Notes: generated by a model not told the origin, from the letters alone. Positions 675 to 31,008 are shown, counted from the stretch's first letter. The stretch: 64,000 nt of DNA from an uncultured SAR86 cluster bacterium (GCA_902591925.1 CACJCN010000006.1:9919-73918); one strand, 5' to 3'. Made by a program: numbers and translations.

Positions 675-1742
675 ATGGACTTAACAATAATATTAGATTA
701 CATAATTATAAGCATAATTGCATCAATGACTATAAATTCTGTTTTAAGAAATTATGCCAAAAGATATAAAATACTTGTCGATCTTCCTGATAGAAATAGA
801 AAATTTCATAGGAGACCAACTCCCATAACTGGAGGGATTGGCATTTTGTTGGCTCTTCTCATATCTGGGAAATTATATATTGATTTAAATGATTTAACAG
901 GTTACGTACCAGAATTTACTTTTCAGTTAGTGCTTATATCAGTTCCATTACTAATTTTATTTATTATTGATGATATAAAAGATTTAAAACCATATTTTAG
1001 AATTTTAATTCAGAGTTCTTTGACGGTTTATATGATCATGAGTACCGGAGTATATCTAGAAACATTAGGAAATTTATTTGGTTTTGGGAATATTAGTCTT
1101 GGAATATTAGGTATTCCTTTTACAATTTTTTGTGTTGTAGGTGTAATGAACGCCTTCAACATGATGGATGGGATCAATGGTTTATGTTCTGGTTGTGCAA
1201 TGCTTGCCTTACTTTTAATTGGTTTTTACTCGGGTTTAATTTATGACTCAATGTTAGTCTTAATTATTGGTTCCATGATAGGATTTTTAATATTTAACTT
1301 AGGTTTTTTTGGTAAAAAAAGGGGAGTATTTCTTGGAGATAGTGGTTCAAATTTAATAGGATTTTGGGTTGCTTGGATTGCAATATACTCCTCTCAGAAT
1401 GAAATTTATAGTATTGAGCCAGTAACTATGCTTTGGTTTATTGCTATTCCGCTTCTTGACTGTATTGGATTGATTGTTGATAGACTAAAAAAAGGAAAAA
1501 ATTGGAGCACTGCCGGAAGAGATCATATTCATCATAAACTAATGGAGAAGTTCTCATCAAGAGGAACTCTTTTTGTCATTTTGATCATAACTCTTATAAC
1601 GGGTTTATTTGGTATGTTAATTGATGAAATTTGGCCATCATATATTTCAATGATATTATTTTTAATATACGGACTTGTGTATTATGTAGTATTAGGTTTC
1701 TTTGGTAAAAATTTTCTAAAAATAAATAAAGAAAATGTTTAG
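675..1742 (+). CDS. wecA: UDP-GlcNAc:undecaprenyl-phosphate GlcNAc-1-phosphate transferase (WecA/MraY family)
   Basis: Polytopic membrane protein with DLPDRNRKFHRRPTP..GG, NAFNMMDGINGL, FLGDSGS and RDHIHHKL motifs. Confidence 0.85.
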   Translation: MDLTIILDYIIISIIASMTINSVLRNYAKRYKILVDLPDRNRKFHRRPTPITGGIGILLALLISGKLYIDLNDLTGYVPEFTFQLVLISVPLLILFIIDDIKDLKPYFRILIQSSLTVYMIMSTGVYLETLGNLFGFGNISLGILGIPFTIFCVVGVMNAFNMMDGINGLCSGCAMLALLLIGFYSGLIYDSMLVLIIGSMIGFLIFNLGFFGKKRGVFLGDSGSNLIGFWVAWIAIYSSQNEIYSIEPVTMLWFIAIPLLDCIGLIVDRLKKGKNWSTAGRDHIHHKLMEKFSSRGTLFVILIITLITGLFGMLIDEIWPSYISMILFLIYGLVYYVVLGFFGKNFLKINKENV

Positions 1743-4103: not shown

Positions 4104-4379
4104 TTAATTTAATGAATTTTTTATATTATGTGAGGGTCGTAGAGTTAATTTTTTCCTTTCATTAATCATATATTCCACTTTTGTAAGTGGGTTTCTCCCA
4201 ATTCTTTTTGGTGAGAGATGATAGTAAAAAGTACCAAAATTGGATATCTTAACTTTACTTTTAAATGAATTCTCAACGACCAGTTTTATAAAGGTGTTTA
4301 GAAAAGAATTTGAATCTGAAGAAGAAATAAGAGTCTTGGAAGAGATATTTTTTGCAATATCCTTTTTTCCAAGACTCAT
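4104..4379 (-). CDS. ihfA: HU/IHF-family DNA-binding protein, IHF-alpha-like
   Basis: VKISNFGTF and GRNPLT motifs; lies downstream of the pheST region as ihfA usually does. Confidence 0.65.
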
Positions 4380-4392: not shown

Positions 4393-5907
4393 CTAAGTTC
4401 CTGTACCTGTTCCAGTGCCTGTACTTGTTCCAGTACCTGTACCTGTTCCAGTTCCTGTGGAGGTTCCAGTTCCTGTGGAGGTTCCAGTTCCTGTACTTGT
4501 TCCAGTACCTGTTGAAGTTCCAGTTCCTGTTGATGTATCAGTGTTAGTATTTGTTGCGGTACCAGTATCATTATTATCATCAAGACCACCAACATCTCTA
4601 ATACTAACAGTGATTTCTTGTGTAGCTGCATTTGAGCTTGCATCAGTTGCTGTTACGGTAGCAGTAATATCATATGTACTGCCATCGTAAGGAAGATCAA
4701 CAGGATTATCAGACTGAGCCTCATAATCCGCAGGTGTTACAAAAGTTAAAACACCATCAGCTGTAATAGTTAAATCATCATTTCCAGATAGAGTGAAAGT
4801 AATACTTTGAATATCTGTTGCTGTCACAGTTCCAACAGCTGTAGCACCTTCGTCTACCACAAAAGTTGATGATGAAGTGAATACTGGAGCAGTCGTATCA
4901 ACAACATTAACAGTTCTTGTTGCAGTACCTGCATTACCGGAAGCATCTGTAGAGGTATAAGTAATTGTATATGTTCCCAAAGTGTCAGGATCTACAGTAT
5001 CACCACTAGTGACAACAGTAACATCACCTGAAGCATCTGTTGCAGTTGCGCCAGCATCTGTGTATGTTGATCCTAATTCTACAGTTACTGAGGCATCACC
5101 GGTTAAAGTTATTACAGGCGCTGTAGTGTCTTCAACATAAACTGGTCTTGTTGCAACACTTCTGTTTCCAGATGCATCTGTAGCGTCATAATTTACCGAG
5201 TATCCACCAACTGTATTTTCGTCAACATTATTATCAACTGTAACTACGATAGGACCAGAAGCATCAGTTGCAGTCGCACCAGCATCGGTATAGGTTTCTC
5301 CTAATTCTGTATAAGCTGGAACATCGCCAAGAATAGTAATTACAGGAGCAGTAGTATCAACAACATTAACGGTTCTAGTTGCTGTTGCAGTATTACCATC
5401 TAAATCAGTAGCAGAATATGTAATAGTGTAAGTGCCAACAGTAGACGTATCCACTGTACCTGAGGAAGTAACTTGTGTTACGCCATGAAATTCATCAAAA
5501 GCTGACGCACCTTGGTCAGTATAAGTATCTCCTAGTTCAACAGTAGCAGGATTGTCACCTATTACTGTGATGACTGGAGGTACATTGTCATCGTAACCAT
5601 CATCGGTCACTGATGCAATTGCTCCAGCACCAACTAGTGCAAGAAGAACTTTTTGTATAGCACTTAGTTCTGCTCTAACTGCAGCAAGTCTTTCCGACAT
5701 CGCTTTGTTAGTTGATGGATTTTGTGTAACGTTGAGTTCATTCATTAAAGAATCTTCTTCATTAATTAAGAATGATCTCCTGTCTTGAAGTTCTTTTATC
5801 CCCATAGAACTAACTTTCTGCTCTATTTCAGCTAATTGAGCTGAACTTAAATCTGCATAAAGCCCCACAGAAAAAATTGTAAAACTTAAAAATAAAAATT
5901 TTTTCAT
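4393..5907 (-). CDS. Exported surface protein: signal peptide, coiled coil, hydrophobic segment, 3 Ig-like (DUF5011/HYR-type) repeats, cadherin-like domain, Thr/Gly tail
   Basis: GAGGT SD 7 nt before ATG; three ~77-aa PVIT..G...VELG.TYTD.GA.A.D...GN....R.V.V.DTT repeats; DEG...TATD...DYE cadherin-like domain; (STGTGT)n C-terminus. Confidence 0.85.
   Translation of the reverse strand: MKKFLFLSFTIFSVGLYADLSSAQLAEIEQKVSSMGIKELQDRRSFLINEEDSLMNELNVTQNPSTNKAMSERLAAVRAELSAIQKVLLALVGAGAIASVTDDGYDDNVPPVITVIGDNPATVELGDTYTDQGASAFDEFHGVTQVTSSGTVDTSTVGTYTITYSATDLDGNTATATRTVNVVDTTAPVITILGDVPAYTELGETYTDAGATATDASGPIVVTVDNNVDENTVGGYSVNYDATDASGNRSVATRPVYVEDTTAPVITLTGDASVTVELGSTYTDAGATATDASGDVTVVTSGDTVDPDTLGTYTITYTSTDASGNAGTATRTVNVVDTTAPVFTSSSTFVVDEGATAVGTVTATDIQSITFTLSGNDDLTITADGVLTFVTPADYEAQSDNPVDLPYDGSTYDITATVTATDASSNAATQEITVSIRDVGGLDDNNDTGTATNTNTDTSTGTGTSTGTGTSTGTGTSTGTGTSTGTGTGTGTGTSTGTGTGTGT
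4409..4534 (-). repeat. Seven tandem 18-bp units encoding (STGTGT)n
   Basis: Plus-strand units gttccagtNcctgtNNNN; two identical copies (4445-4462, 4463-4480), the others differ by a few bases. Confidence 0.9.
4891..5580 (-). repeat. Three intragenic Ig-like domain repeats (aa 110-339)
   Basis: Repeats of 77, 76 and 77 aa are visible in the translation. Confidence 0.85.
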
Positions 5908-6116
5908 AGCTATTACCTCAAATATTTGCTATTCAGAGTCATATTCACATAAATAATTAACTTACACAACTCTGGAAGAGAATAATACGTCATTTTTAAT
6001 CAAATTGACATACATTTAATATGTTTTTTTTATAATCATTATTTAAAAACAGCTTTTCATGTTTAATTTGGAATATTAAGCAGCAATATCAGTGCCAATT
6101 AAATTTTATCTAGCTC

Positions 6117-8072
6117 TTAATCAATTGGTCTGAATCGAACTAATAAATCATGTAATGTATTTCTTCTAACAAGCTTTGCACCAGGATCCTTGGTCAATGG
6201 CCTCCATGTATATGCTATTGAATTGCCAAAAATTGGTATGTTAAAGAAAATACCTTTATCAAAACTGCCCTCCCCAAATTGTTCAGATGAAACATCTGTA
6301 AATGTTGCAAAAGCACCGAAACTTACTCCACTTTCTAACCTTCTAGAAAATTCAACAGTTGTGCCTATATCACCTGCCAAATACTCACCCATAGATATTT
6401 TTAAATCAAAGGGTATTATTCCATAATTTCTATAGTAAAAATTTGCTGTCAAAAAAGTGTTTTCGTAATCTAAGTGACCAAAACTCCACTCATAATCCCT
6501 CTTTTTTACTTTAAAAAGTTCAGCACCAAAAGAATAATTTGTATTTGGTTTAAAAAATAAATATTCAGCTCCTACACCAGAGAACATATCCTCAAGAATG
6601 CCTCCTGTTATCATCATATGATGATTATCTTTTGGAGTCATATGATAATCAAATTGCGCTCTACCAATTAAAATACCCTCATCCATATTTTTAAGATATT
6701 GCTTCACATCAGATCTTACTTGGGCTGGAAAAGTATCTATTGGTGGAAACCTTAAATCATCAAAATTATTTGCAAGACTATATTTTAAATTAACATTAAA
6801 AAATAAATTTTCTCTCAAAATAATCTCAGTATTATTCTCAATAAGGAAGGCGCCTTTAAAAAATTCTTCCCTTGATGCAATAAAAGGTTTAAATCTAAAT
6901 CCTGTGGACGTATTAAAAAGACTAGTGGTTGGTCTTTCATAAATAACTGTAGCATTTCTTTTAAAAGCTTCGTCAATTTCAGAAACGCCTCTCAAATCTG
7001 CAATTTTGATGTCTTTTTTAATATTTTTATCAATACCAGCCTTTAATGATGCCTCTGAAATAATTCTTTCAACAACATTTAAATCAGGATGTATAAATTG
7101 AGTTAACTCTAAGCCAATTGATTTCGAACTTTCTGAAATTTTTTTTACACCAATTCCATTTTCTTCCAAATTTCTAATAAGCTTTGTATATTTATCATCA
7201 TCTTCATTAGTATCAGGATTTTGATATTCGTATTTTTTATAAGATGACTTTGGACTATTTTTGTAAACTATTTTCAACGAGGCATAATTGCCTCTTTCGT
7301 ATGAGAGACCAACATTAAAATTTTCATTTATTGAATAAGATATTCCAAATGAATATTCACTTTTCTTTTTTTCATATGCGATAATTTGAGAATCTACATT
7401 TGTAGTATCTTTTTCAATCATAAATAACAAGTTCCTATTTAAAGCATAAGAGACTCCATAAAAAGGAGAAGCTGTTTTACCTGAAAAATATTTTTTTAAA
7501 TTAAGTTGTCCGCCTTTATCTTCGAAATTTATAGGTCTATTTTTAAAATCTTCTCTAATGTACCCGAATGGATTAGATATTTTTGAATTAGATCCGTTTA
7601 ATTGTCCCCATCCAAGTCCAAGATGAAAATCTAATTTATTTTTTCCATAACTTGCAACAATATATTCAGAATTATGTAGCCCCGTTCCAGCAAAATCATT
7701 TAATCCGACAGCTATTGCAGGAAAAATACCTTCTTCTTTTAGTCTGATTTTTACATTAAATCCTTTATCTTTATAATCTTGATACGAATATCCTGGATAG
7801 GGTCTTCCTTGAATATTGCTGTAAAAAAAAGATGCCTCAAACCAGTCATATGGATTTGATGAAAGAGTTATTTTTTGATCTGGTGTTCCGTCATAAAGTG
7901 TTACTCCATGAGCACCTTCATCATAAAATCTGGCTGTAGGTAAATTTATAAGACCCACAACACCATGATTGTTATATATGTTATAAGTGAAATTATCCGC
8001 ATAAATAACGGATGATAAAAAAAGAAATATAAAAATAAAATCTTTTTTTATAAAATTAGAATTTTCTAACAT
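6117..8072 (-). CDS. YjbH/GfcD-family outer-membrane beta-barrel protein
   Basis: Signal peptide; GVVGLINLPTARF, YQDYKDKGFNVK, FAGTGL..SEY, QVRSDVKQY, GDIGTTVEFSRR, FDKGIFFNIP and WRPLTKDPG motifs characteristic of YjbH. Confidence 0.85.
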   Translation of the reverse strand: MLENSNFIKKDFIFIFLFLSSVIYADNFTYNIYNNHGVVGLINLPTARFYDEGAHGVTLYDGTPDQKITLSSNPYDWFEASFFYSNIQGRPYPGYSYQDYKDKGFNVKIRLKEEGIFPAIAVGLNDFAGTGLHNSEYIVASYGKNKLDFHLGLGWGQLNGSNSKISNPFGYIREDFKNRPINFEDKGGQLNLKKYFSGKTASPFYGVSYALNRNLLFMIEKDTTNVDSQIIAYEKKKSEYSFGISYSINENFNVGLSYERGNYASLKIVYKNSPKSSYKKYEYQNPDTNEDDDKYTKLIRNLEENGIGVKKISESSKSIGLELTQFIHPDLNVVERIISEASLKAGIDKNIKKDIKIADLRGVSEIDEAFKRNATVIYERPTTSLFNTSTGFRFKPFIASREEFFKGAFLIENNTEIILRENLFFNVNLKYSLANNFDDLRFPPIDTFPAQVRSDVKQYLKNMDEGILIGRAQFDYHMTPKDNHHMMITGGILEDMFSGVGAEYLFFKPNTNYSFGAELFKVKKRDYEWSFGHLDYENTFLTANFYYRNYGIIPFDLKISMGEYLAGDIGTTVEFSRRLESGVSFGAFATFTDVSSEQFGEGSFDKGIFFNIPIFGNSIAYTWRPLTKDPGAKLVRRNTLHDLLVRFRPID

Positions 8073-8085
8073 TCATAATCTCTAT

Positions 8086-9933
8086 CTAATTGTTATCAAT
8101 TGCAGATAAAGACGCTAATGCAACTCCAAGATTACCTAAAATAGATACATATGCTTGAGTTGCAAGCCTTCTTGATGCAGAGTTATCAATTTTTCTAGGT
8201 ACAAAAATTACTGATCCTGGATACATTTTGAGATCTCGAGGCTGATTTGCAAATAAGTTTCTTTGTTTTGAATATCTCTGTGTTTCACCGTTTGGATGAA
8301 GTATATAAATAGATTCCTTGTCAGCTAATCTCTTATAACCACCAGATTTTTCTACAAAATAATCAACACCTCTATTTGATGAAAAAGATACCGCACCCTC
8401 TGAAGAAACTTCTCCGTATACAAAAACACTATTTGTTTTTTCTGGAACAATTAAGGAATCTCCTTCACGTATATTTATAAAATTCTCACTTTCTTCACTC
8501 AATAAATCTATAACAATTCTGCCACTAGGAGAAGAATTTTTTATTTCCTCAGTTAATCTTACAATCGGCATTAAATCAGCATTCTGTCCAATGTTTAATT
8601 GACTAATAAGAATAATGTTATCGAGGAACTCCTCGTATAATAATTCTTGAGCTTTTTCATTAATTAATTTTGCATCATTATTTTCATAAACAGCCCCAAA
8701 AGGATAGGCATTTTCAGTAAATCCTCCAGCTTTTTTAACTAAATCTTCAATTGTTTCTCCTGCAGCCATTATATATTTACCTGGTTTATAAACAGCACCT
8801 GTAATTGAAGCAGTTCTGTATGAAAATTCTCTAATATAAATTAAATCTCCATCAATGGGTTTGATAGATTCAAACTGAGAAACATTTGTTATAGGTATTG
8901 ATCTAAGACTACCATCTAATATCCTTTCTAATGAAATGTTTTGAAGATCTGCTGTTTGTTTGATTCCATTTGAATATTTTACAATACTATCTAAAAATTG
9001 ATCTTCAGAAATTTCGTACTTTGCTGGTCTTTTAACTGCGCCATTGATTGTGATAACTCCTTTTCTGGCTTCAACAAAGACAACATCACCGGAACGAAGG
9101 CGTTTTTTTAATGAGTAATTTCCATCAATAAGTATGTCATACACATCCAAGGTATCAACTATCTTACCATTTCTTAGTAAATTTATTTCTCTGTAAGATC
9201 CAAATTCATTTACACCTCCAGCAGCATTCAAAGCATGTAATATGTTTGAGTTTCCAGTGAGAGTATAAACACCAGGATTTTCTGCATTACCGGATACTAA
9301 GATATTAACATCTCTTATTTTATCTAAGCTGATGTATGAATCAGTTTGAATGTATACAGAGTCAACAAAAGATTTCACAAGCGTGGAAGCTTCATCTAGA
9401 GTTAATCCAGCTAATGTTATTTTTCCAATATCTGGGATATTTATAGATCCATCTCCTTTGATAGTAAAAGTATCAAATAAATCTGATTCACCAATGAGTT
9501 GTATTCTTAAAATATCTCCGATATCCAGTGTGTAAGATGAATCAGGATTAGGCTCGTTTATTGGCATAAATGAAGTTTGAAATGTTTTGAAGAAGTCAGA
9601 TCCAAACAATTTAAGATCCTCAGAAATTTCGAGATTTTCGCTAGAATTAAGTCTTCTTTCAAGCTCCCTTAGATCATTCTCAAGTCTTGTCTTTAACTTA
9701 ATGAGTTCCTCTTGTTGCTCAAATTTGCTTGAGTAAAGTGTAGACCGATAATTGTTTTTAAGATCATCTATATTTTCATCTGCTCTATCCATTAGGTCAT
9801 CCTTTATATCCTCTGGAAGGCTATCTAGATATGATTCATCTAATTCTTGAGCATAAACAAAACTCAATGAAAACAAGAATATAAATGGTAAAAATTTTAA
9901 ACTATTCATAAATTTCTCTGGATTGAATAACAA
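8086..9933 (-). CDS. Polysaccharide export protein with multiple SLBB domains (KpsD/OtnA-like OPX)
   Basis: LFGSDFF, YTLDIGD Poly_export domain, repeated V.G.V..PG.Y SLBB units and a C-terminal amphipathic helix; no lipobox seen; true start may be MNSLKF (9909). Confidence 0.85.
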   Translation of the reverse strand: MLFNPEKFMNSLKFLPFIFLFSLSFVYAQELDESYLDSLPEDIKDDLMDRADENIDDLKNNYRSTLYSSKFEQQEELIKLKTRLENDLRELERRLNSSENLEISEDLKLFGSDFFKTFQTSFMPINEPNPDSSYTLDIGDILRIQLIGESDLFDTFTIKGDGSINIPDIGKITLAGLTLDEASTLVKSFVDSVYIQTDSYISLDKIRDVNILVSGNAENPGVYTLTGNSNILHALNAAGGVNEFGSYREINLLRNGKIVDTLDVYDILIDGNYSLKKRLRSGDVVFVEARKGVITINGAVKRPAKYEISEDQFLDSIVKYSNGIKQTADLQNISLERILDGSLRSIPITNVSQFESIKPIDGDLIYIREFSYRTASITGAVYKPGKYIMAAGETIEDLVKKAGGFTENAYPFGAVYENNDAKLINEKAQELLYEEFLDNIILISQLNIGQNADLMPIVRLTEEIKNSSPSGRIVIDLLSEESENFINIREGDSLIVPEKTNSVFVYGEVSSEGAVSFSSNRGVDYFVEKSGGYKRLADKESIYILHPNGETQRYSKQRNLFANQPRDLKMYPGSVIFVPRKIDNSASRRLATQAYVSILGNLGVALASLSAIDNN

Positions 9934-10001: not shown

Positions 10002-11909
10002 TTAAATTTCTAGGCCGGGAATAGTTACAGAGTCAATTGATAAAGCTTTCTTAATAATCTCATCCATTACTTCATTTACGTCTTCATCTTTTATAGTATT
10101 GAATTTGGATTGAAAAATAAATCTTATTCCAACTTTGATTTCTTTTGCAATATCATTTTTGTAATAATCAAATATAAATACTTCTTTAAGCAAATCATTT
10201 TCAAAAGATAAAATTGCCTTTTCTAATATTTTGCAATTTGAAAATTTTTTTATTGAAAAAGATAAATCTCTTGTGGAACAAGGGAAATCTGATATTTGAA
10301 TATACTTCTTACTATTAATATCAAAACAAACAGGATAGTCATCAGCATATTTAGTTTTTAAGGATGAGTCTAATTCTATTTCAAGATAAAATATTTTATT
10401 TTTTGATTTTGAGTTAATTTTTTCCCTAGATATTTCAACTATTTCAACATCTTTGCCAAGATTTTCATAATTTAAAAAATTACTAAGATACTCTAGATCA
10501 ATTTTTTTATTAAATTCTTTGTAATTCTTTCCAATTCTCCCGCTTGCAATTATTCCAATAACTCTTTTTTGTAAATCAGAATTTTTAACGTAAATGTCTG
10601 CTATCTCAAATAGCTTGATTATATCTTTTTGCCTATTTTCATTATAGATAAGATCATCTATGAGAGAGTCAAGAAGATCAGTTCTTAAGAAGTTTTTATT
10701 TTTATCCAGAGGATTATCAATGACAAATGAATTCTTGTTTTTTTTTGATGAAAAGGGATTATTTATGACTTCATAAAAACCCTTATCTATTAGTAATTTT
10801 TTTAATTTATTTTCATTGTTATGATTATGTCCTTTTGTATCAATACTAATCTTAAAGTTTTTTGTATTTATGTTGTCATAGCCTATAGCTCTAGCAATTT
10901 CCTCAGATAGATCATTTATATTTGATATATCATTTCTATAAGAAGGAACTAAAACAGAATTATCTTTAAATATGAAACCTAGTTTTCTGAGATATTCTTT
11001 ACATTTGATATCATCTAAATTCACTCCAAGGATACTTTTGATTTTTTCTATGTCGAAAAAAATCTTTTTAGAATTATGAGTTTTTGATTCTGAAAATAAC
11101 TCAACATTAATTATTTTTGTATGATTTTCAACAATATTTAAAAATCTTCTTAAAACATAATCGTGATTATTTTTGTCGGTATTTCTCTCAAATTTATAGG
11201 CAGCATCTGAAGTAATATTGTATTTTATTGGCCTTCCGAGTATTGCTTCAGGTTCAAAATATGCGCATTCTAAGAGAACATGTTTTGTTTTTTTGTTACA
11301 AGATGTATTCTTTCCACCAACAATTCCAGCAAAATTAATAACCTCCATATTATTATCTAAAAATACTAATTCATTTTCATCAATACAAATTTTACTACCC
11401 AACAAGGTTTCAAATTCTACTTTCTTGCTTAAAAAGTCTAGTGTTATAGGATCTTTTATTTTTAGAAAATCATAACAATGAGTTGGTTGACCTGTTTCAT
11501 AAGAAATAAAATTTGAAATATCTGTAAAAAAATTGATTTTTTTAAGATTTAAATCAATGAAGTAACTTTTTAAATCACCTTTATAATTTGAAGGGATATC
11601 TTCAATCTCTAATTTTAAAAAAGAAATATTACTACAAACTTTTTTTGCATTGTTATTGAAGGATAAAGAATAAGTCCTGATTTCCGGTTCATATATATCT
11701 TTATTGATATCAATTTCGTAAAACAATCTTAAATCTCTTAACAATCCATCAAGAGAGATACAATCTCCTCTGTTAGGCGTAAGTTCAAAGTTAAAAATTT
11801 CATCAGATATTTCATGTTCATGACCAAGTTGGAAAAATCTTTCTGACAATTCATTTATACTTGGTTTTGATTGAATATTTTCAACAAAATGTTTATGTGG
11901 AATCTTCAT
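10002..11909 (-). CDS. pheT: Phenylalanine-tRNA ligase beta subunit (short, 635 aa)
   Basis: TPNRGDC, GQPTH, LECAYF, VPSYRND..DL.EEIAR and C-terminal RDLSF anticodon-binding domain; follows pheS. Confidence 0.93.
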   Translation of the reverse strand: MKIPHKHFVENIQSKPSINELSERFFQLGHEHEISDEIFNFELTPNRGDCISLDGLLRDLRLFYEIDINKDIYEPEIRTYSLSFNNNAKKVCSNISFLKLEIEDIPSNYKGDLKSYFIDLNLKKINFFTDISNFISYETGQPTHCYDFLKIKDPITLDFLSKKVEFETLLGSKICIDENELVFLDNNMEVINFAGIVGGKNTSCNKKTKHVLLECAYFEPEAILGRPIKYNITSDAAYKFERNTDKNNHDYVLRRFLNIVENHTKIINVELFSESKTHNSKKIFFDIEKIKSILGVNLDDIKCKEYLRKLGFIFKDNSVLVPSYRNDISNINDLSEEIARAIGYDNINTKNFKISIDTKGHNHNNENKLKKLLIDKGFYEVINNPFSSKKNKNSFVIDNPLDKNKNFLRTDLLDSLIDDLIYNENRQKDIIKLFEIADIYVKNSDLQKRVIGIIASGRIGKNYKEFNKKIDLEYLSNFLNYENLGKDVEIVEISREKINSKSKNKIFYLEIELDSSLKTKYADDYPVCFDINSKKYIQISDFPCSTRDLSFSIKKFSNCKILEKAILSFENDLLKEVFIFDYYKNDIAKEIKVGIRFIFQSKFNTIKDEDVNEVMDEIIKKALSIDSVTIPGLEI

Positions 11910-14457: not shown

Positions 14458-15243
14458 TTATTCTTCCTGATAATATCTAATTCTTTCAATGTCATCCTCA
14501 ATAGTTTGTTCACCATATTGGATCTCAATAATATGGCATGGTTCATCATATGGATTAATAATTTGATGCCATGACTTTTTTTTTATAAATAAACTATCTT
14601 CGATTTTTAAATTAATTTCTTTAAAATTTTCTGGTTCTTTTTCACTGTAATTAACAATACATTTACCTTTACTTACAAACCATATTTCACTTCTTTGAAA
14701 ATGCCTTTGAAAGCTTAGTCCCTTTTTTGGATATACAATTAATTCTTTAACTTTGACATTAATATCGCCTGTATCTTCGAAAAGGTTGAAAAACTTTCCC
14801 CATATTCTGTCTTCATTCGAATATTGCCAATCTTTTAGGATCCAGCTTGAAGAATTGATCTTATCTTTCCCTCCAACTCCGAAGGCAAAGTTAATTCCTT
14901 TTACTTTCATTTCTGGTATGTTTTCTTTATTTCTGTCTCCGCCATTACAAAAAATAATCTCTTCTCTAGGGTTGAGTTTTTTTATTTTTTCTAAAGCATT
15001 TATGCAGCTTCCAATTTCATCATCCTCAAAATCTATGACACTATCAATCATGTATAAATTCTCTAGAATGCTCTTTCTCTCATTAAAAGGCAGTAAAAAT
15101 TTTCCTTTCTTCTTTTTGAGCCAATCGTCACTATTCAAAGCAACATAAAGCTTATCTCCTAATTTATAAGCTTCTTTGAAATAAGAAATATGGCCGGAAT
15201 GAACAGGATCAAATCCTCCACTTACAACAACTATTTTCTTCAT
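14458..15243 (-). CDS. HIGH-class cytidylyl/adenylyltransferase fused to a cupin (mannose-6-phosphate isomerase-like) domain
   Basis: True start MKKIVVVSGGFDPVHSGH (15243); C-terminal RIWGKF, LSFQRHFQRSEIW, IEIQYG..EDDIER cupin. Confidence 0.8.
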   Translation of the reverse strand: MKKIVVVSGGFDPVHSGHISYFKEAYKLGDKLYVALNSDDWLKKKKGKFLLPFNERKSILENLYMIDSVIDFEDDEIGSCINALEKIKKLNPREEIIFCNGGDRNKENIPEMKVKGINFAFGVGGKDKINSSSWILKDWQYSNEDRIWGKFFNLFEDTGDINVKVKELIVYPKKGLSFQRHFQRSEIWFVSKGKCIVNYSEKEPENFKEINLKIEDSLFIKKKSWHQIINPYDEPCHIIEIQYGEQTIEDDIERIRYYQEE

Positions 15244-15329
15244 AATAATTTTTGGTTTGATTATATCATCAAGAAATAATAAAAAAATCAGATATATGGT
15301 AACCAAAAAAATTTTAATTAACTTATAAT

Positions 15330-16133
15330 TTGAGACCCTTGATAGAAAAAAACAAACAGTTAGTTTCAATTGTGATGCCTGCTTATAATTGCGAGGAGAA
15401 AATACATCACGCAATTGAATCAGTAAAATCACAAACATATTGTAATTGGGAGTTAATAATTGTTGATGATTGCTCTAAAGATGAAACATTAAGAGTAATA
15501 GAGAACTATGCTAACTCTGATAAGAGAATATTATCCCTTAAGAATATACGAAATAAGGGTGCTGCAGAGTCAAGAAATATTGCAACAGATAAAGCATTGG
15601 GACACTATATAGCTTTTTTAGATTCTGATGATTTATGGTCAAAAGATAAACTTTTGAATCAAATTACATTTATGGAGTCAAATAGTTACGATTTCACTTA
15701 TACATATTATGAGGTCAAAAAGGAAGACCAAAGAAAAAGGATAATTTATAAAGCTCCAAAAATTCTTAACAAAATTAAAATGTCTTTCATGTGTCCAATT
15801 GGTTGTCTTACAGTTATGTATAATGTAAAAAAAATTGGAAAAATATATGCTCCAAAACTCCAAAGAAGGAATGATTATATCTTATGGATTGAAATACTTA
15901 GAAAATCAAAATTGGCGTTTTGCTTAAATCAGAATTTAGCAACTTACAAAGTTAATAATGCTGGTTTATCATCAAGCAAACTACTTAATATCTATTATTA
16001 TTTCAAAGTTATAAAATTATCTTACAAATATTGGTATTTAATACTCCCATTAACTACACCAATATATTTATTGCTAATACTTATAAAAAAAACAACACCA
16101 GAATTTTATAATATCATTATAAAAAATTTATAA
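15330..16133 (+). CDS. Glycosyltransferase family 2
   Basis: VSIVMPAYN, IIVDDCSKD, AFLDSDD, RRNDYILW. Confidence 0.9.
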   Translation: MRPLIEKNKQLVSIVMPAYNCEEKIHHAIESVKSQTYCNWELIIVDDCSKDETLRVIENYANSDKRILSLKNIRNKGAAESRNIATDKALGHYIAFLDSDDLWSKDKLLNQITFMESNSYDFTYTYYEVKKEDQRKRIIYKAPKILNKIKMSFMCPIGCLTVMYNVKKIGKIYAPKLQRRNDYILWIEILRKSKLAFCLNQNLATYKVNNAGLSSSKLLNIYYYFKVIKLSYKYWYLILPLTTPIYLLLILIKKTTPEFYNIIIKNL

Positions 16134-16149
16134 ATATTGATTCTTGCAA

Positions 16150-17142
16150 TTATAAATACCATTTGATTGTTTCTATAATACCTTCTTCAAAATTTATTGA
16201 TGGGGACCATCCTAAATCATTTTGGATATTATTAATGTCAACTGCGTATCTAAAATCATGGCCCTGACGATCTTCGATGTGTTCAACTAGGTCAAGGTGA
16301 TTAAAATTAGTATCGAAATTTTCATTAAAAAATTTACATATCAAAGTTGCAACGTCAATATTTCTTAATTCGCAATTACCTCCAACATTGTAGGTTTGTC
16401 CAACTTCAGAACTTCTTATAATTAAATCTATTGCTTTACAATGATCATAAACATGCAACCAATCTCTTATATTGTTACCCTCCCCATATATAGGAATGAC
16501 TTTTTTATTTTTACAGGCATCAATAATTGTAGGTATAAATTTTTCTGAATGTTGATATGGTCCATAGTTGTTTGAGCAATTTGATATAGTTATTGGAAGT
16601 CCGTATGTCTCGTGCCATGCCCTAACAAGATGGTCTGATCCAGCTTTTGAGGCAGAGTATGGTGAATTGGGAAAATACTTATTAGTTTCTTTAAATTTGA
16701 AATCTTTTATCTTTAGGGATCCATAAACTTCATCGGTAGATATATGATGAAATCTATATTTTTTTTTAGAAGATGAGGACTGCAAATCCCAGCACGATTT
16801 TGCACATTCTAAAAGAGAATAGGTACCTAAAACATTTGTTTCAATAAATGTTCTTGGGTTATTTATAGATTTATCTACATGACTTTCAGCTGCAAAATTT
16901 ATAATCGTATCAATTTTATTATTTTTTATAATTAAATTTACTAAATTTTTGTCACAAATATCTCCTTTTATAAATTCATAATTTATCTTGTTATTTACTA
17001 ATTTTTTATTAGCAGCATATGTTTGGTTATCAATATTTATGATTGAGACATCATTATACTTTTCTAGAAAAAACTCGATAAAATTTGTTCCTATAAAGCC
17101 AAGTCCACCTGTAACAAGTATATTTAATGGTTTATATTTCAT
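16150..17142 (-). CDS. rmlB: dTDP-glucose 4,6-dehydratase
   Basis: GGLGFIG, NFAAESHVDKSI, HISTDEVYG, PYSASK, SNNYGPYQ. Confidence 0.95.
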   Translation of the reverse strand: MKYKPLNILVTGGLGFIGTNFIEFFLEKYNDVSIINIDNQTYAANKKLVNNKINYEFIKGDICDKNLVNLIIKNNKIDTIINFAAESHVDKSINNPRTFIETNVLGTYSLLECAKSCWDLQSSSSKKKYRFHHISTDEVYGSLKIKDFKFKETNKYFPNSPYSASKAGSDHLVRAWHETYGLPITISNCSNNYGPYQHSEKFIPTIIDACKNKKVIPIYGEGNNIRDWLHVYDHCKAIDLIIRSSEVGQTYNVGGNCELRNIDVATLICKFFNENFDTNFNHLDLVEHIEDRQGHDFRYAVDINNIQNDLGWSPSINFEEGIIETIKWYL

Positions 17143-18010
17143 TTTTGTTTTTTGAAAAAATATTAATCAGCGATGACTCCCAAGAATCAATACTAATGTT
17201 GAATGTCTTGCAAATTTTTATAGTAGACATTCTTGAATTCATTGGTCTTTTTGCTTTTGTTTTGTACTGAGAAGAATGCACCTTCTTAATAATTGTTTTA
17301 TCTTTCAAAAAACCTTTTTCGAAAGAGATATTTATGATTTTTTCTGCAAATTCTGCCCATGAAACAGAAGGATTTTGAACCAGATTATACACACCCCAAT
17401 TATCATTAATTTTTGGAAGTATTTCTATTATTTTTTTTGAAACTTCATCTGTAGATGTCGGATTACCTATTTGATCAGATACAACATCAATTTTTGTATT
17501 TAATTTTGATAGTTCTAAAATTTTTGACAAAAAATTTCCCTCAAAGTCAGAAAATACCCAACTTATTCTAATAATGAGATATTTTTCAATCGTTTTAAAA
17601 ATTTGTTCTTCGCCTTGTAATTTTGATAATCCGTATTTGTTAATTGGATTGGGTTTGTCATCCTCTGAGTACAAGTCTTTTTTTAGCCCGTCAAAAATAT
17701 AATCTGTTGAGAAATGTATTAGTGGTATATCAAATTCTTTACAAATCTTAGATAAATTGAATACGCCATCTCTATTTATTTGAAAGACTTTTTCTTCATT
17801 GTCCTCTGCATCGTCAACTTGAGTGTAGGCCGCAGTATTAATAATAATATCAGGTCTAAAATTTTTGATGACACTGAAAGAATTCTCAAAATTACAAATA
17901 TCCATTTCTCTTTTGTTAAGTGCAGAAAACACATGAATACTGCTTTTTTTTAAATTTTTTAAAAATGATTTACCGAGCTGACCGTCGGCACCGGTAATTA
18001 AAATTCTCAA
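17132..18010 (-). CDS. rmlD: dTDP-4-dehydrorhamnose reductase
   Basis: GADGQLG, HFSTDYIFDG, YGLSKLQGE, DQIGNPT, AKRP.NS. Confidence 0.95.
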   Translation of the reverse strand: MRILITGADGQLGKSFLKNLKKSSIHVFSALNKREMDICNFENSFSVIKNFRPDIIINTAAYTQVDDAEDNEEKVFQINRDGVFNLSKICKEFDIPLIHFSTDYIFDGLKKDLYSEDDKPNPINKYGLSKLQGEEQIFKTIEKYLIIRISWVFSDFEGNFLSKILELSKLNTKIDVVSDQIGNPTSTDEVSKKIIEILPKINDNWGVYNLVQNPSVSWAEFAEKIINISFEKGFLKDKTIIKKVHSSQYKTKAKRPMNSRMSTIKICKTFNISIDSWESSLINIFSKNKNEI

Positions 18011-18537
18011 AATAACTCACAAAACTTTAACCCTTTTGAATCTTTTTCAGAGATTTTAGGGTTTTCAATTTTCCAGTCTATATTTAATTTTGGATCATTC
18101 CATATAAGGGTACATTCATCATCAGGATCATAATAATCAGTGCATTTATAAATAATATTGGCATCTTCGAAGGTCACAAACCCATGGGCCAATCCAGGTG
18201 GTATCCATAACTGATGTCCATTAGACATACTTAAGTCTACCCCAATCCATTTCATAAATGTTGCAGAATTTTTTCTAATATCTACAACCACGTCATAGAT
18301 TCTTCCTTTAACAACATAAATAAGTTTTCCTTGAGGTTTGTTTTTTTGAAAATGTAAACCCCTGAGAACTCCCTTTGATGACGAAGAAAAATTATCTTGA
18401 ACAAAATTAAGACTTATTTTGGCATCATTTAAATATCTTTCTTTTTGGAAAGTTTCTAGAAAAAAACCTCTATTATCTTTATATATTTTAGGTTTAATTA
18501 ATAAACAATCTTGAATATCTGTTTTCTCAATTTTCAT
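18007..18537 (-). CDS. rmlC: dTDP-4-dehydrorhamnose 3,5-epimerase
   Basis: DNRGFF, FVQDN, GVLRGLHFQ, LWIPPGLAHGF. Confidence 0.95.
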   Translation of the reverse strand: MKIEKTDIQDCLLIKPKIYKDNRGFFLETFQKERYLNDAKISLNFVQDNFSSSSKGVLRGLHFQKNKPQGKLIYVVKGRIYDVVVDIRKNSATFMKWIGVDLSMSNGHQLWIPPGLAHGFVTFEDANIIYKCTDYYDPDDECTLIWNDPKLNIDWKIENPKISEKDSKGLKFCELF

Positions 18538-18547
18538 AATTAATCCG

Positions 18548-19438
18548 TCATATTTTATTTAAAACATTCTTAAGATGTAAGCCATAATTATTTGAAGGAT
18601 ATATATCAATAATTTTTGCAAATTGTTCTCTAGTAATCCAATTATTTTTAAATGCTATTTCCTCAATACAACCAACTTTGAATCCATGTCTTTTTTCAAC
18701 AGCCATAATAAAATTCGATGCCTCTAGTAGGGCATTAGGAGTTCCAGTATCAAGCCATACGAAGCCTTCACCAAGATTATTTAATCTCAATAGATCTTTT
18801 TTTAGATAGGACAAATTTATATCAGTAATTTCCAACTCTCCTCTTCTTGAGGGCTTTAGGCCTTTTGAAATTTTAATCACATTATTATCATAAAAATATA
18901 AACCAGTTATAACTTGATTAGATTTTGGTGAACTTGGTTTTTCTTCAATTGATAGAATTCTATCGTTATTGTCTAACTCAACAACTCCAAAGTCTTGAGG
19001 ATTATCTACAACACATGAAAAAATTGTGCCACCAGAATTAAAACTTGTAGCTTTAATTAATTTTTCTTGAAAATTATCACCATAAAAAAGATTATCACCA
19101 AGTATTAAGGCTACATTTTTATTTGAAATAAATTCTTCACCGATAATAAATGCTTGAGCTATTCCTTCTGGTTTTTCTTGAACTTTATATGATATTTTTA
19201 TTCCTAAATTGCTTCCATTGCCAAGCAGTTTTTTATAAATAGGCATGTGATCAGGAGTAGAAATAATTAAAATATCTCTTATCTTGGCCATCATTAATGT
19301 TGACAAAGAGTAATAAATCATAGGCTTATCGTAGATAGGAATTAATTGTTTGGATATTGCAAAAGTTGAAGGAAACAGTCTAGATCCGCTTCCACCAGCC
19401 AAAATAATACCTTTAAACAAATCATTACTATTCATCAT
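18548..19438 (-). CDS. rmlA: Glucose-1-phosphate thymidylyltransferase
   Basis: GIILAGGSGSRL, SKQLIPIYDKPM, LGDN, EKP, RGELEITD, WLDTGT. Confidence 0.96.
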   Translation of the reverse strand: MMNSNDLFKGIILAGGSGSRLFPSTFAISKQLIPIYDKPMIYYSLSTLMMAKIRDILIISTPDHMPIYKKLLGNGSNLGIKISYKVQEKPEGIAQAFIIGEEFISNKNVALILGDNLFYGDNFQEKLIKATSFNSGGTIFSCVVDNPQDFGVVELDNNDRILSIEEKPSSPKSNQVITGLYFYDNNVIKISKGLKPSRRGELEITDINLSYLKKDLLRLNNLGEGFVWLDTGTPNALLEASNFIMAVEKRHGFKVGCIEEIAFKNNWITREQFAKIIDIYPSNNYGLHLKNVLNKI

Positions 19439-21512: not shown

Positions 21513-21521
21513 AAAATAATT

Positions 21522-22358: not shown

Positions 22359-22385
22359 AATTTATATTAAAACCCCGCTATCATA

Positions 22386-23249: not shown

Positions 23250-23254
23250 TATTT

Positions 23255-25518: not shown

Positions 25519-25574
25519 TTGTGTATGCGATTTTTTAATGACTATATGCGAATTCTTTAATAAAGTCGACTAAA

Positions 25575-26537: not shown

Positions 26538-26541
26538 TTAA

Positions 26542-27102
26542 TTAATATTTTGAGTCTATGTAACTACATATAATGTGGCCAATTGTAATATGCATTTCTT
26601 GTATATGAGCAGTTACATTTGAAGGAACAACTATTGAATGACCGGCAAGACTTTTTGCAACTCCGCCATCTTTTCCAAGAAGACCTACAGTAATGCATCC
26701 TAGTTGATTGCTAGTTTTTATAGCATTAATGATATTTTTACTATTTCCGCTTGTGGAGATAGCAATTAATATATCTTTTTCATTTGCAAGAGACTCTATT
26801 TGTCTAGAAAATATATTTTCATATCCATAATCATTTGAAATAGCAGTCATAGCTGAGGTATCAGTATTAAGAGCTATTGCCGGTAATCCTTTCCTTTCTT
26901 TTAAAAATCTTCCAACAAATTCTGCAGCTATGTGCTGAGCATCTGAGGCACTACCTCCATTACCACAAATTAATAATTTTCCACTTTGATCTAAGCATTG
27001 ATATATTTCCAAGCATACTTCTTCAATGATTGTTGATTGATCAAGTAATTCTATAGCTACCTTAGAATGTTGATCAATGTGATTAGAGATAAGTTTATTC
27101 AT
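26542..27102 (-). CDS. gmhA: D-sedoheptulose 7-phosphate isomerase
   Basis: CGNGGSASDAQH, TAISNDYGY, ISTSGNS.N, HIQEMH. Confidence 0.95.
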   Translation of the reverse strand: MNKLISNHIDQHSKVAIELLDQSTIIEEVCLEIYQCLDQSGKLLICGNGGSASDAQHIAAEFVGRFLKERKGLPAIALNTDTSAMTAISNDYGYENIFSRQIESLANEKDILIAISTSGNSKNIINAIKTSNQLGCITVGLLGKDGGVAKSLAGHSIVVPSNVTAHIQEMHITIGHIICSYIDSKY

Positions 27103-27121
27103 AATACTAATTATAGAGATT

Positions 27122-28414: not shown

Positions 28415-28432
28415 GACAATTAAATAAGCAAC

Positions 28433-31001: not shown

Positions 31002-31008
31002 GAGAGTT

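What the first reader, a model, noticed from the sequence alone, without database searches (positions are those of the whole stretch)
4393..9933. Candidate surface-display system: SLBB exporter + YjbH barrel + giant GfcA/YjbE-like adhesin
Seen: three co-oriented genes encoding a multi-SLBB OPX protein, a YjbH/GfcD barrel, and an exported protein with a short G/A/V hydrophobic segment (VLLALVGAGAIASV), a DDG/DDN acidic linker and a Thr-rich C-terminus. Known (from memory): enteric yjbEFGH/gfcABCD operons pair this barrel with a tiny signal-peptide protein (YjbE/GfcA) built from such a hydrophobic segment and a Thr-rich tail; its role is unresolved. Inference: this is an equivalent protein with three Ig-like domains and a cadherin domain inserted between the two hallmarks, while the YjbF/GfcB lipoprotein is absent. 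That suggests YjbH barrels export or anchor a (glyco)protein rather than only polysaccharide.
Basis: partly seen in the sequence, partly recalled or inferred. Interest (0 to 1): 0.8.

Follow-up and report, generated by a model that had tools for sequence, protein, structure and literature searches.

The report
SAR86 capsule exporter with Ig-repeat surface protein
In a marine SAR86 bacterium, the outer-membrane exporter genes for a surface sugar coat are followed by a variable Ig-repeat surface protein; it sits where related bacteria encode a tiny threonine-rich protein of unknown role, hinting (unproven) that this exporter also displays a protein.

Summary
Window 4393-9933 (minus strand) encodes three proteins.
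- An OPX protein with Poly_export, three SLBB domains and a GfcC/YjbG-like C-terminal part.
- A full-length YjbH/GfcD barrel protein.
- A 504-aa exported protein. It has a signal peptide, a helical hairpin, a non-amphipathic hydrophobic helix (VLLALVGAGAIASVT), an acidic collar (DDGYDDN), four beta-sandwich domains and a disordered (TG)n tail.

The organism is a SAR86 gammaproteobacterium. The module sits between pheT and ihfA, beside a large Wzx/Wzy polysaccharide cluster.

- YjbH is followed by this protein in all 22 genome loci with sequence downstream, and lies directly upstream of it in 60 of 60 metagenome loci with room. All of these share one inherited synteny.
- There is no profile homology to YjbE/GfcA.
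- Across about seven lineages, an ORF with the same order of hallmarks (80 to 313 aa) lies beside yjbH. By my rule, 42 of 43 such ORFs are within 1.5 kb.
- A second SAR86 locus type has YjbF plus a 123-313 aa Thr/Ala-rich version instead.

So the Ig protein plausibly fills the YjbE/GfcA slot. Dependence on YjbH is inferred, not shown. The idea that GfcD exports a protein is already speculated in the literature. "Giant" overstates its 504 aa.

The parts
8086..9933 (-). OPX protein, 615 aa (probable start ATG at 9909). Class-2, KpsD-like: SPI signal without lipobox, about 100 aa of helical N-terminal extension, Poly_export, three SLBB domains, a GfcC/YjbG-like region (about residues 460-580) and a C-terminal hydrophobic segment (...AYVSILGNLGVALASLSAIDNN).
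   Evidence: Pfam and NCBIfam. Solved relatives are Wza proteins. BLASTP to E. coli GfcC gives E 3e-5 and to YjbG 1e-6 over residues 462-578. It ends 13 bp before yjbH starts.
6117..8072 (-). YjbH/GfcD-family outer-membrane protein, 651 aa, with an SPI signal and no Cys. Compared with E. coli GfcD it lacks residues 291-302 and 373-405, which lie in the central periplasmic domain.
   Evidence: PF06082 at E 2.5e-123. Full-length alignment to E. coli YjbH and GfcD at 30% and 28% identity. Deletion mapping.
5908..6116 (.). 209-bp AT-rich gap between yjbH and the Ig gene. A Shine-Dalgarno-like GAGG lies before the ATG. There is no terminator-like hairpin, and the promoter-like matches are not above chance.
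5851..5907 (-). Ig protein residues 1-19: Sec (SPI-type) signal peptide MKKFLFLSFTIFSVGLYA|D. There is no lipobox.
   Evidence: Sequence. A low-pLDDT helix at 3-15 in the model.
5650..5850 (-). Ig protein residues 20-86: amphipathic helical hairpin, the first part of the family-specific N-module. AELSAIQK is nearly invariant.
   Evidence: AlphaFold2 with 72 sequences, pLDDT 83-92. Hydrophobic moments 0.8-1.1. Alignments.
5605..5649 (-). Ig protein residues 87-101: uniformly hydrophobic helix VLLALVGAGAIASVT. It continues helix 64-100 beyond the end of its hairpin partner, helix 37-60.
   Evidence: Mean Kyte-Doolittle hydropathy 2.23 and hydrophobic moment 0.10. pLDDT 59-68.
5584..5604 (-). Ig protein residues 102-108: acidic collar DDGYDDN. 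The 12 residues after the hydrophobic segment carry net charge -4 and have no K/R. D103, Y105 and D107 are nearly invariant.
4597..5580 (-). Ig protein residues 110-437: three PF16403 Ig-like domains plus one cadherin-like beta-sandwich domain, forming a rod of tandem domains.
   Evidence: Pfam. AlphaFold2 pLDDT mostly above 90. Foldseek matches cadherin ectodomains and an RTX-adhesin extender, and Big_3/Ig domains.
4396..4572 (-). Ig protein residues 446-504: disordered Thr/Gly-rich tail (DTGTATNTNTDTS(TG)n), preceded by the conserved DVGG[LIV]DD. It is encoded by a degenerate tandem repeat.
10002..11909 (-). pheT, the upstream border of the three-gene module. The infC-rpmI-rplT-pheS-pheT genes lie further upstream.
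   Evidence: synteny
4104..4379 (-). IHF-alpha/HU-family gene, the downstream border. It starts 13 bp after the Ig gene ends.
14458..42217 (-). Wzx/Wzy-type polysaccharide biosynthesis cluster. It contains a ManC-like gene, rmlBDCA, glycosyltransferases, methyltransferases, a Wzy_C-family gene (27122-28414), a Wzx-like gene (31009-32319), NeuB/NeuA/epimerase genes, UDP-glucose dehydrogenase and a Wzz-type chain-length protein without a kinase (41306-42217). This is the likely source of the polymer exported by OPX and YjbH. One glycosyltransferase (15330-16133) is on the plus strand.
675..1742 (+). Glycos_transf_4 (WecA/MraY-like) initiating transferase on the other side of the module.

Best explanation
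This is the outer-membrane end of a SAR86 surface-polysaccharide pathway that resembles the group-4 (O-antigen) capsule system.

Export pair. A class-2 OPX protein, which has the GfcC/YjbG module built in, works with a YjbH/GfcD two-barrel protein. Together they export the polymer made by the neighbouring Wzx/Wzy cluster.

The third gene. It fills the slot that YjbE/GfcA fills in other bacteria. It encodes a Sec-exported protein whose conserved N-module (helical hairpin, then a 15-residue uniformly hydrophobic helix, then an acidic collar) acts as the anchor. A strain-variable rod of Ig-like domains and a Thr/Gly-rich tail project outward.

Proposed mechanism (inferred):
1. After signal-peptide cleavage, the hairpin stays in the periplasm.
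2. The hydrophobic helix sits in or beside a YjbH barrel, or is released from it into the outer membrane.
3. The acidic collar faces outward.
4. The rod and tail are displayed within the polysaccharide layer, possibly O-glycosylated or tethering the polymer.

Shown: gene content, domain architecture, strict linkage, and recurrence of the hallmark architecture beside yjbH.
Inferred: dependence on YjbH, topology, and glycosylation.
For: - Domain calls and the operonic OPX-yjbH pair with a 13-bp gap.
- The OPX C-terminal part resembles GfcC/YjbG.
- A Wzx/Wzy/Wzz cluster and a WecA-like gene flank the module.
- yjbH is followed by the N-module protein in all 22 genome loci with downstream sequence, including L023 and L024 where OPX has moved, and in 60 of 60 metagenome loci with room.
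- ORFs with the same hallmark order lie beside yjbH in enterics, Pseudomonas, Rheinheimera/Alteromonadales, Rhodocyclus/Azoarcus, Limnobacter, L065 and the second SAR86 locus type. They occur in three different positions and orientations.
- 42 of 43 rule-based hits lie within 1.5 kb of the yjb/gfc genes, against 47% expected (p 5e-13), with one hit per locus.
- In the window, only the Ig ORF passes the rule.
- In every example the hydrophobic run is followed by an acidic flank without K/R. This argues against a stop-transfer inner-membrane anchor that would leave the C-terminal part in the cytoplasm.
- The hydrophobic helix is non-amphipathic and extends past the hairpin.
- The protein has no lipobox, no beta-barrel domain and no C-terminal sorting signal, so the N-module is the only candidate anchor.
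- Class-1 YjbH, which has no YjbF partner, has lost parts of the periplasmic domain that class-2 YjbH, which has YjbF, keeps.
- Literature: GfcA and the FapF-like N-barrel of GfcD have no assigned function, and protein export by GfcD has been proposed (PMC8592465, PMC9603273, PMC8346858).
Against: - No sequence or profile homology to YjbE/GfcA or to the SAR86 Thr-rich family was detected.
- The resemblance involves low-complexity features, and my detection rule was written after I had seen examples.
- All SAR86 class-1 linkage is a single conserved synteny in which every neighbour is conserved, so it is one evolutionary event.
- The 209-bp gap may hold a separate promoter, and the Ig gene abuts ihfA rather than yjbH.
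- Mirror-tree partial correlation of the N-module with YjbH (0.32) is lower than with OPX (0.60) or ihfA (0.52).
- Some yjbH loci have no hallmark ORF that I could detect: the Pseudomonas nitroreducens group and the orphan yjbH genes in L029 and L030.
- The (TG)n stretch also serves as an internal linker in longer relatives such as P0037, so it is not strictly a terminal hallmark.
- There are no experimental data for any step.
Confidence: 0.45

Rival explanations
1. Neighbours only. OPX and YjbH export polysaccharide. The Ig-repeat protein is an independent, strain-variable surface or envelope protein, for example a decoy for phage or grazers, or an adhesin. It happens to lie in the same conserved pheT-ihfA interval, has its own promoter, and reaches its place by another route.
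For: - A 209-bp gap with promoter-like hexamers precedes the Ig gene, which lies 13 bp from ihfA.
- No homology to YjbE/GfcA was found.
- There is no specific co-evolution with YjbH.
- PF16403 arrays with other N-termini are common in marine bacteria: 3398 hits, many covering only the Ig part.
- The whole neighbourhood is syntenic, so linkage alone is weak evidence.
Against: - The hallmark ORF recurs beside yjbH in unrelated lineages and in different orientations.
- Class-1 loci contain no other YjbE-like ORF, while class-2 SAR86 loci have one.
- YjbH and the Ig gene stay adjacent when OPX moves.
- The protein has no recognisable alternative anchor or secretion signal.
Confidence: 0.35
2. Polysaccharide tether. 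The Ig protein depends on the OPX/YjbH machine, but mainly as the anchor or primer that holds the exported polymer at the surface. The polymer would be covalently O-linked to the Thr-rich tail by a Wzy_C/PglL-type enzyme, or bound non-covalently by the Ig domains. This is a more specific form of the best explanation.
For: - The disordered tail is about 45% Thr.
- A Wzy_C-family gene lies in the adjacent cluster.
- Larson et al. suggest that GfcA is modified by O-antigen and sent to GfcD (PMC8592465).
- Fruet et al. model GfcD as the exporter of anchored polysaccharide through a lateral gate (PMC11494523).
Against: - The single Wzy_C gene is most simply the repeat-unit polymerase.
- No second ligase or O-oligosaccharyltransferase was identified.
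- There is no evidence of glycosylation.
Confidence: 0.15
3. Inner-membrane protein. The internal hydrophobic segment is an ordinary transmembrane helix in the cytoplasmic membrane, as GfcA is annotated.
For: - Kyte-Doolittle hydropathy over 19 residues is 1.7.
- E. coli GfcA is annotated as an inner-membrane protein.
Against: - With a cleaved N-terminal signal, this topology would put the four Ig-like domains and the Thr-rich tail in the cytoplasm.
- The C-side flank has net charge -4 with no K/R, which goes against the positive-inside rule.
- The uninterrupted hydrophobic core is only about 15 residues.
Confidence: 0.05

Closest known systems
E. coli yjbEFGH and gfcABCDE-etp-etk (group 4 capsule) loci
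   Same: - It has a YjbH/GfcD-family protein (28-30% identity along the full length), a GfcC/YjbG-like module and a Wza-type OPX function.
- It lies next to a Wzx/Wzy polysaccharide cluster.
- An adjacent exported protein has a signal, an A/G/V hydrophobic run, an acidic or polar flank and a Thr-rich end.
   Different: - There is no YjbF/GfcB lipoprotein.
- GfcC and GfcE functions are fused in one class-2 OPX.
- There is no Etk/Etp; only a Wzz-type protein without a kinase is present.
- The YjbE/GfcA slot lies downstream of yjbH and holds a 504-aa folded protein with no detectable homology to YjbE/GfcA.
- YjbH lacks two stretches of the periplasmic domain.
OPX / beta-barrel pairings described by Saidi et al. 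2022 (PMC9603273): class 2 OPX (Poly_export-SLBB-GfcC, with or without a C-terminal helix) near GfcD/YjbH-type barrels
   Same: A Poly_export-SLBB-GfcC-like OPX is encoded directly upstream of a YjbH barrel. That paper counts GfcD/YjbH homologues near class 1, 2A and 2B OPX genes.
   Different: That work does not describe an associated Ig-repeat protein or the variation in YjbE-like proteins. Whether the C-terminal segment here spans the outer membrane was not tested.
Second SAR86 locus type found here (for example L040, L059, L050): OPX-YjbH-YjbF plus a convergent Thr/Ala-rich protein of 123-313 aa
   Same: - Same clade and same OPX-YjbH core.
- The adjacent protein has a signal, a very conserved SLSAGAIAAAVAAAAAIAA-type hydrophobic run, an acidic patch (DDDD or DAQDG), then a passenger and a Thr-rich end.
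   Different: - It has YjbF and a full-length YjbH periplasmic domain.
- It has no helical hairpin and no Ig domains, but a (PAPT)n linker.
- It has the opposite orientation.
- Only a 19-column, 15%-probability profile match links it to the N-module.
Large repetitive adhesins retained in an outer-membrane channel by an N-terminal module (LapA/LapE-type RTX adhesins; from my own knowledge, not tested here)
   Same: It has a rod of tandem Ig/cadherin-like domains. Foldseek matches an RTX-adhesin extender. The proposed logic is also alike: a periplasmic N-terminal module too bulky to pass holds the protein in an outer-membrane pore.
   Different: Those adhesins use type 1 secretion with a C-terminal signal and no Sec signal peptide. 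Here there is a Sec signal, no RTX repeats, and the candidate pore is a YjbH barrel.
FapF/FapC amyloid export (the N-terminal barrel of GfcD/YjbH matches FapF according to PMC8346858 and PMC9603273)
   Same: It offers a precedent for a barrel of this type passing an unfolded polypeptide from the periplasm.
   Different: The FapF likeness was not tested for the window protein, and the Ig protein is not amyloid-like by any test done here.

Membership tests
YjbH/GfcD family (PF06082) | Full-length match to the family profile | tested here: met
   E 2.5e-123; the best stretch reaches position 656 of the 658-position model. 30% and 28% identity to E. coli YjbH and GfcD over the whole length.
YjbH/GfcD family (PF06082) | Two beta-barrels flanking a periplasmic domain (literature: PMC8346858, PMC11494523) | not tested
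   No structure model was made for the window protein. The alignment is colinear, with deletions only at GfcD 291-302 and 373-405 in the central domain.
OPX proteins (Wza/KpsD) | Poly_export domain followed by SLBB domains | tested here: met
   PF02563 at 7.7e-14; PF10531 and PF22461 with three stretches each. Wza structures are matched at about 1e-10.
Class 2 OPX (KpsD-like; Saidi 2022) | GfcC-like module after the SLBB domains | tested here: met
   BLASTP of residues 462-578 to E. coli GfcC (3e-5) and YjbG (1e-6). Several orthologues hit YjbG/GfcC by phmmer. Pfam itself reports no GfcC domain.
Class 2B / class 1 OPX | C-terminal outer-membrane-spanning helix (Wza_C) | tested here: inconclusive
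   There is no Pfam Wza_C hit. A conserved hydrophobic C-terminal segment is present in the window protein and in relatives.
YjbE/GfcA (PF11106) | Match to the family profile, or detectable homology | tested here: not met
   No hit at E <= 10 for the N-terminal piece, the C-terminal piece or a spliced mini-version. phmmer with E. coli YjbE and GfcA finds nothing in the window.
YjbE/GfcA (PF11106) | Small (about 80-100 aa), largely unstructured protein | tested here: not met
   The protein is 504 aa with four confidently folded domains and a helical hairpin.
YjbE/GfcA (PF11106) | Signal peptide, internal A/G/V-rich hydrophobic run with an acidic or polar C-side flank, Thr-rich C-terminus | tested here: met
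   The same rule picks out E. coli-type YjbE, other lineages' versions and the Ig protein. Flank charges are -1 to -4.
YjbE/GfcA (PF11106) | Encoded next to yjbH/gfcD, as first gene before yjbF/gfcB | tested here: inconclusive
   It is adjacent to yjbH in every locus seen. However, it lies downstream of yjbH after a 209-bp gap, and there is no yjbF.
Group 4 capsule operon (gfcABCDE-etp-etk) | GfcB lipoprotein and the Etk/Etp kinase-phosphatase pair | tested here: not met
   There is no GfcB/YjbF homologue in 64 kb. The only PCP is Wzz-like, 303 aa, without a kinase.
Bacterial surface Ig-like domain proteins (PF16403/DUF5011) | PF16403 repeats | tested here: met
   Three stretches, E 2.2e-54. 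Fold matches to Big_3/Ig domains.
Cadherin-domain proteins | Significant PF00028 match | tested here: inconclusive
   21 bits against a cut-off of 28.8. The Foldseek likeness to cadherin ectodomain arrays is generic for tandem beta-sandwiches.

The most novel reading that the evidence does not exclude
YjbH/GfcD two-barrel proteins are not only polysaccharide porins. They may also insert or export a class of Sec-delivered surface proteins, the YjbE/GfcA kind. These would be recognised by an uncharged A/G/V-rich helix followed by an acidic collar. The class would range from 80-aa Thr-rich peptides to Ig-repeat proteins of 300 to more than 1000 aa. That would make this a previously unrecognised outer-membrane display route in which an alpha-helical segment, rather than a lipid or a beta-barrel, anchors the protein.
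Probability: 0.3. Interest if true: 0.85.

Novelty: new variant of a known kind. Interest (0 to 1): 0.6.

Why it matters
GfcA/YjbE and the extra FapF-like barrel of GfcD/YjbH have had no assigned function since the gfc and yjb operons were described. The searchable literature offers only speculation that GfcD exports a modified protein.

The SAR86 locus is a natural version in which the enigmatic small protein is replaced by a large folded one that is easy to tag. The survey here also shows graded intermediates of 80, 125, 220-313 and 300 to over 1000 aa beside yjbH. That makes the question directly testable: does surface display of the passenger require YjbH?

Ecologically, SAR86 is one of the most abundant marine bacterial groups. 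A hypervariable Ig-repeat protein embedded in its polysaccharide coat is a plausible target or decoy for phages and grazers.

If the linkage is only positional, the finding reduces to an ordinary capsule exporter next to an ordinary variable surface protein.

Tried and rejected
- Pfam scan of the N-terminal piece, the C-terminal piece and a spliced 'mini-YjbE' at E <= 10. There was no YjbE family hit.
- hhalign of the N-module profile against the N-termini of the SAR86 Thr-rich proteins. Only the hydrophobic-plus-acidic stretch aligned, at 15% probability, so homology is not claimed.
- Exhaustive profile search of the N-module. It found 203 relatives, always with the module at the N-terminus, and no bridge to YjbE-like proteins.
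- Mirror-tree and partial Mantel test on 34 loci. The N-module correlates no better with YjbH (0.32) than with OPX (0.60) or ihfA (0.52), so there is no specific signal.
- Foldseek on the N-module model. Only the Ig domain matched, and the hairpin had no informative analogue.
- Promoter and terminator scan of the yjbH-Ig gap. Nothing exceeded chance, so the operon structure is unresolved.
- An attempt to reach SAR86 genomes of the second locus type through ihfA homologues, to see whether pheT-ihfA is empty there. Every look-up returned the same class-1 synteny, so the co-absence test could not be done.
- The short N-module hits of 95-220 aa looked like stand-alone small proteins. Their ends read like frame-shifted or truncated sequence, so I rejected them as evidence for a small form.
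- A 'self-chaperoning hairpin replaces YjbF' idea. The model shows the hydrophobic helix extending past the hairpin rather than packed on it, so this idea is not favoured.

Full report
**What is there**

The window has low G+C (about 29%). All genes of interest lie on the minus strand. Running downstream, the order is:
- infC-rpmI-rplT-pheS-pheT (pheT at 10002-11909)
- OPX (8086-9933)
- yjbH (6117-8072)
- a 209-bp gap
- the Ig-repeat gene (4393-5907)
- an IHF-alpha/HU-family gene only 13 bp further on (4104-4379)
- tRNA-Pro on the plus strand
- a carboxylesterase

- Poly_export plus three SLBB stretches in the OPX
- PF06082 YjbH at E 2.5e-123
- three PF16403 Ig-like stretches at 2.2e-54
- a cadherin match below Pfam's threshold

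The quoted hydrophobic segment, the DDGYDDN linker and the Thr/Gly tail are all present. The tail is encoded by a degenerate tandem repeat.

**Organism and surroundings**

A scan of species-representative genomes with a YjbH alignment places the window in the SAR86 cluster of Gammaproteobacteria.

Upstream of the translation-gene block lies a 28-kb Wzx/Wzy-type polysaccharide cluster. It includes rmlBDCA, glycosyltransferases, a Wzy_C-family protein, a Wzx-like flippase, NeuB/NeuA-type genes and a Wzz-type chain-length protein without a kinase. A WecA-like initiating transferase lies on the other side.

The OPX/YjbH pair is therefore most simply the outer-membrane exit for this polymer.

**The exporter pair**

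- The OPX has an SPI-type signal and no lipobox.
- Residues 462-578 of the OPX resemble E. coli GfcC and YjbG (BLASTP 3e-5 and 1e-6).
- It ends in a conserved hydrophobic segment.
- In the scheme of Saidi et al. 2022 (PMC9603273) this is a class-2, KpsD-like OPX. That paper found this class near GfcD/YjbH barrels.
- YjbH aligns along its whole length with E. coli YjbH and GfcD at 30% and 28% identity.
- YjbH lacks GfcD residues 291-302 and 373-405. These lie in the central periplasmic domain to which Larson et al. 2021 (PMC8592465) suggest GfcB-GfcC binds.
- No YjbF/GfcB homologue exists in the 64-kb window.

**The Ig protein**

AlphaFold2 was run with 15 sequences and then with 72. It gives:
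- a signal-peptide helix
- an amphipathic hairpin (helices 22-33 and 37-60, then 64-100; pLDDT 83-92 for residues 21-90)
- four confident beta-sandwich domains
- a disordered tail from residue 446

The last 15 residues of the long helix (87-101) are uniformly hydrophobic, with mean hydropathy 2.23 and hydrophobic moment 0.10. They are followed by a flank of net charge -4 with no K/R.

Foldseek matches cadherin ectodomains, an RTX-adhesin extender and Big_3/Ig domains. Nothing informative matched the hairpin.

The protein has no lipobox, no barrel and no C-terminal sorting signal. The N-module is therefore the only candidate anchor.

With a cleaved signal, an inner-membrane stop-transfer topology would put the Ig domains in the cytoplasm and would go against the positive-inside rule. 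I consider that unlikely.

**Family and linkage**

- The approximately 110-aa N-module defines a narrow family. There are 129 hits in the 5.8-billion-protein set and 203 cluster representatives among 1.84 billion proteins. The module is always N-terminal and nearly always followed by PF16403 domains.
- Apparent stand-alone short forms are truncated or frame-shifted gene calls.
- Complete proteins range from 296 to 756 aa in the fetched loci and up to 1012 aa elsewhere, through changes in Ig-domain number.
- In all 22 SAR86 genome loci with sequence downstream of an orthologous yjbH (52-75% identity), the N-module gene follows directly. This includes L023 and L024, where OPX has moved upstream of pheT.
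- In the reverse direction, 60 of 60 metagenome loci fetched through the N-module and having room upstream carry yjbH directly upstream.
- All of these share the pheT...ihfA synteny, so they count as one inherited arrangement.

**Relation to YjbE/GfcA**

Homology tests fail:
- PF11106 is not hit at E <= 10.
- phmmer with E. coli YjbE and GfcA finds nothing.
- hhalign gives only a 19-column, 15%-probability match, located exactly at the hydrophobic-plus-acidic stretch.

Architecture and position do agree. Beside yjbH homologues in many lineages there is an exported ORF with the same order of features, in sizes from 80 to 313 aa. The lineages are enterics, Lonsdalea, Pseudomonas jinjuensis and Metapseudomonas, Rheinheimera, Glaciecola, Alteromonas, Rhodocyclus, Azoarcus, Limnobacter, an uncultured gammaproteobacterium (L065) and a second type of SAR86 locus.

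In the second SAR86 locus type:
- The order is OPX-YjbH-YjbF, followed by a convergent Thr/Ala-rich protein of 123-313 aa.
- That protein carries a strikingly conserved SLSAGAIAAAVAAAAAIAA segment, an acidic patch and often a (PAPT)n linker. It was detected in 17 loci.
- These loci keep the full YjbH periplasmic domain.

A rule encoding the hallmarks returns 43 ORFs among 3339 tested. Of these, 42 lie within 1.5 kb of the yjb/gfc genes (47% expected; binomial p 5e-13), with one per locus. The single distant hit (L064) is itself a similar protein 3 kb from a long ORF matching both YjbG and YjbH. In the window, only the Ig ORF passes.

Caveats:
- The rule was written after I had seen examples.
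- The loci are not independent.
- Some yjbH loci have no detectable hallmark ORF: the Pseudomonas nitroreducens group and the orphan yjbH genes in L029 and L030.

**Mechanism**

The best-supported reading is that the Ig protein is the positional and architectural counterpart of YjbE/GfcA, carrying a folded passenger. In this reading its N-module engages the YjbH/OPX machine and the rod and tail are displayed in the polysaccharide layer.

This step is inferred. A mirror-tree test found no specific co-evolution with YjbH. The operon structure across the 209-bp gap is unresolved.

The main rival is that the gene is merely a neighbour.

The general idea that GfcD might export a modified GfcA or an amyloid-type protein already appears as speculation in PMC8592465 and PMC9603273. 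Fruet et al. (PMC11494523) model GfcD instead as the exporter of lipid-anchored polysaccharide through a lateral gate. I found no paper linking YjbH/GfcD to Ig-repeat proteins or describing the size series.

**Verdict**

- It is a new variant of a known kind of locus.
- It has moderate-to-high interest because it offers a tractable handle on the unresolved role of GfcA/YjbE and of the GfcD/YjbH barrels.

Noticed in passing
L040:10837-11778(-), L059:10759-11583(-), L050:10798-11187(-) and 14 further loci: A second type of SAR86 yjbH locus (OPX-YjbH-YjbF) is followed by a convergent gene for a Thr/Ala-rich exported protein of 123-313 aa. It has an almost invariant SLSAGAIAAAVAAAAAIAA (or SSGVIAAIAAAVLAVAAIV) segment, an acidic patch and (PAPT)n or (ST)n runs. 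This looks like an uncharacterised family and the best SAR86 analogue of YjbE/GfcA.
   Followed up: partly
window 6117-8072; alignment: YjbH proteins from loci without YjbF (SAR86 class 1, and the orphan L030) lack GfcD residues 291-302 and about 373-409 in the periplasmic domain. Those from loci with YjbF keep them. This fits the idea that the domain is the YjbF/GfcB docking site.
   Followed up: partly
L023:1754-3562 and L024:1693-3528: In two SAR86 lineages the OPX gene lies upstream of the pdxH-like gene and the infC...pheT block, while yjbH and the Ig gene stay together between pheT and ihfA.
   Followed up: no
L087, L097, L108, L110, L112 and about 15 other metagenome contigs: Twenty short metagenome contigs begin 30-115 bp before the Ig gene start, and most end within about 100 bp after its stop codon. 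This suggests assembly breaks at the borders of a strain-hypervariable gene. The number of Ig domains also varies widely between relatives.
   Followed up: no
P0302: One distant N-module protein (292 aa) continues into a sequence with a DxSGS motif that looks vWA-like instead of Ig domains. It may be a different passenger on the same anchor, or a chimeric assembly. Its genomic context could not be looked up.
   Followed up: no
L056:7119-9995, L058:576-4784, L064:392-4669: In Limnobacter and Burkholderiales MAGs, long ORFs of 958 to about 1425 aa match both YjbG/GfcC and YjbH. These may be natural fusions, or artefacts of long-ORF calling in high-GC DNA. L064 also has a 258-aa protein (7655-8431, minus strand) with a folded N-terminal part followed by the hydrophobic run and a Thr-rich end.
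   Followed up: no
L029:7920-9887, L030:7944-9920: Orphan yjbH homologues (36-40% identity) sit next to a putative lipoprotein with a peptidase-like C-terminal region, with no OPX, YjbF or hallmark ORF nearby. YjbH is therefore not always part of such a module.
   Followed up: no
window 4001-6000: The Ig gene region has 38% G+C against about 29% around it. The Thr/Gly/Ala/Asp/Val-rich composition probably explains this, rather than foreign origin. This was not tested formally.
   Followed up: no
window 8086-9933, residues about 30-125: The OPX has a roughly 100-aa acidic, coiled-coil-like N-terminal extension before the Poly_export domain, which E. coli Wza lacks. OPX distances correlate best with N-module distances in the mirror-tree test (partial r 0.60).
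   Followed up: no
window 4023-4099 (+): A tRNA-Pro(GGG) gene lies between the ihfA-like gene and the carboxylesterase, on the strand opposite to all its neighbours.
   Followed up: no
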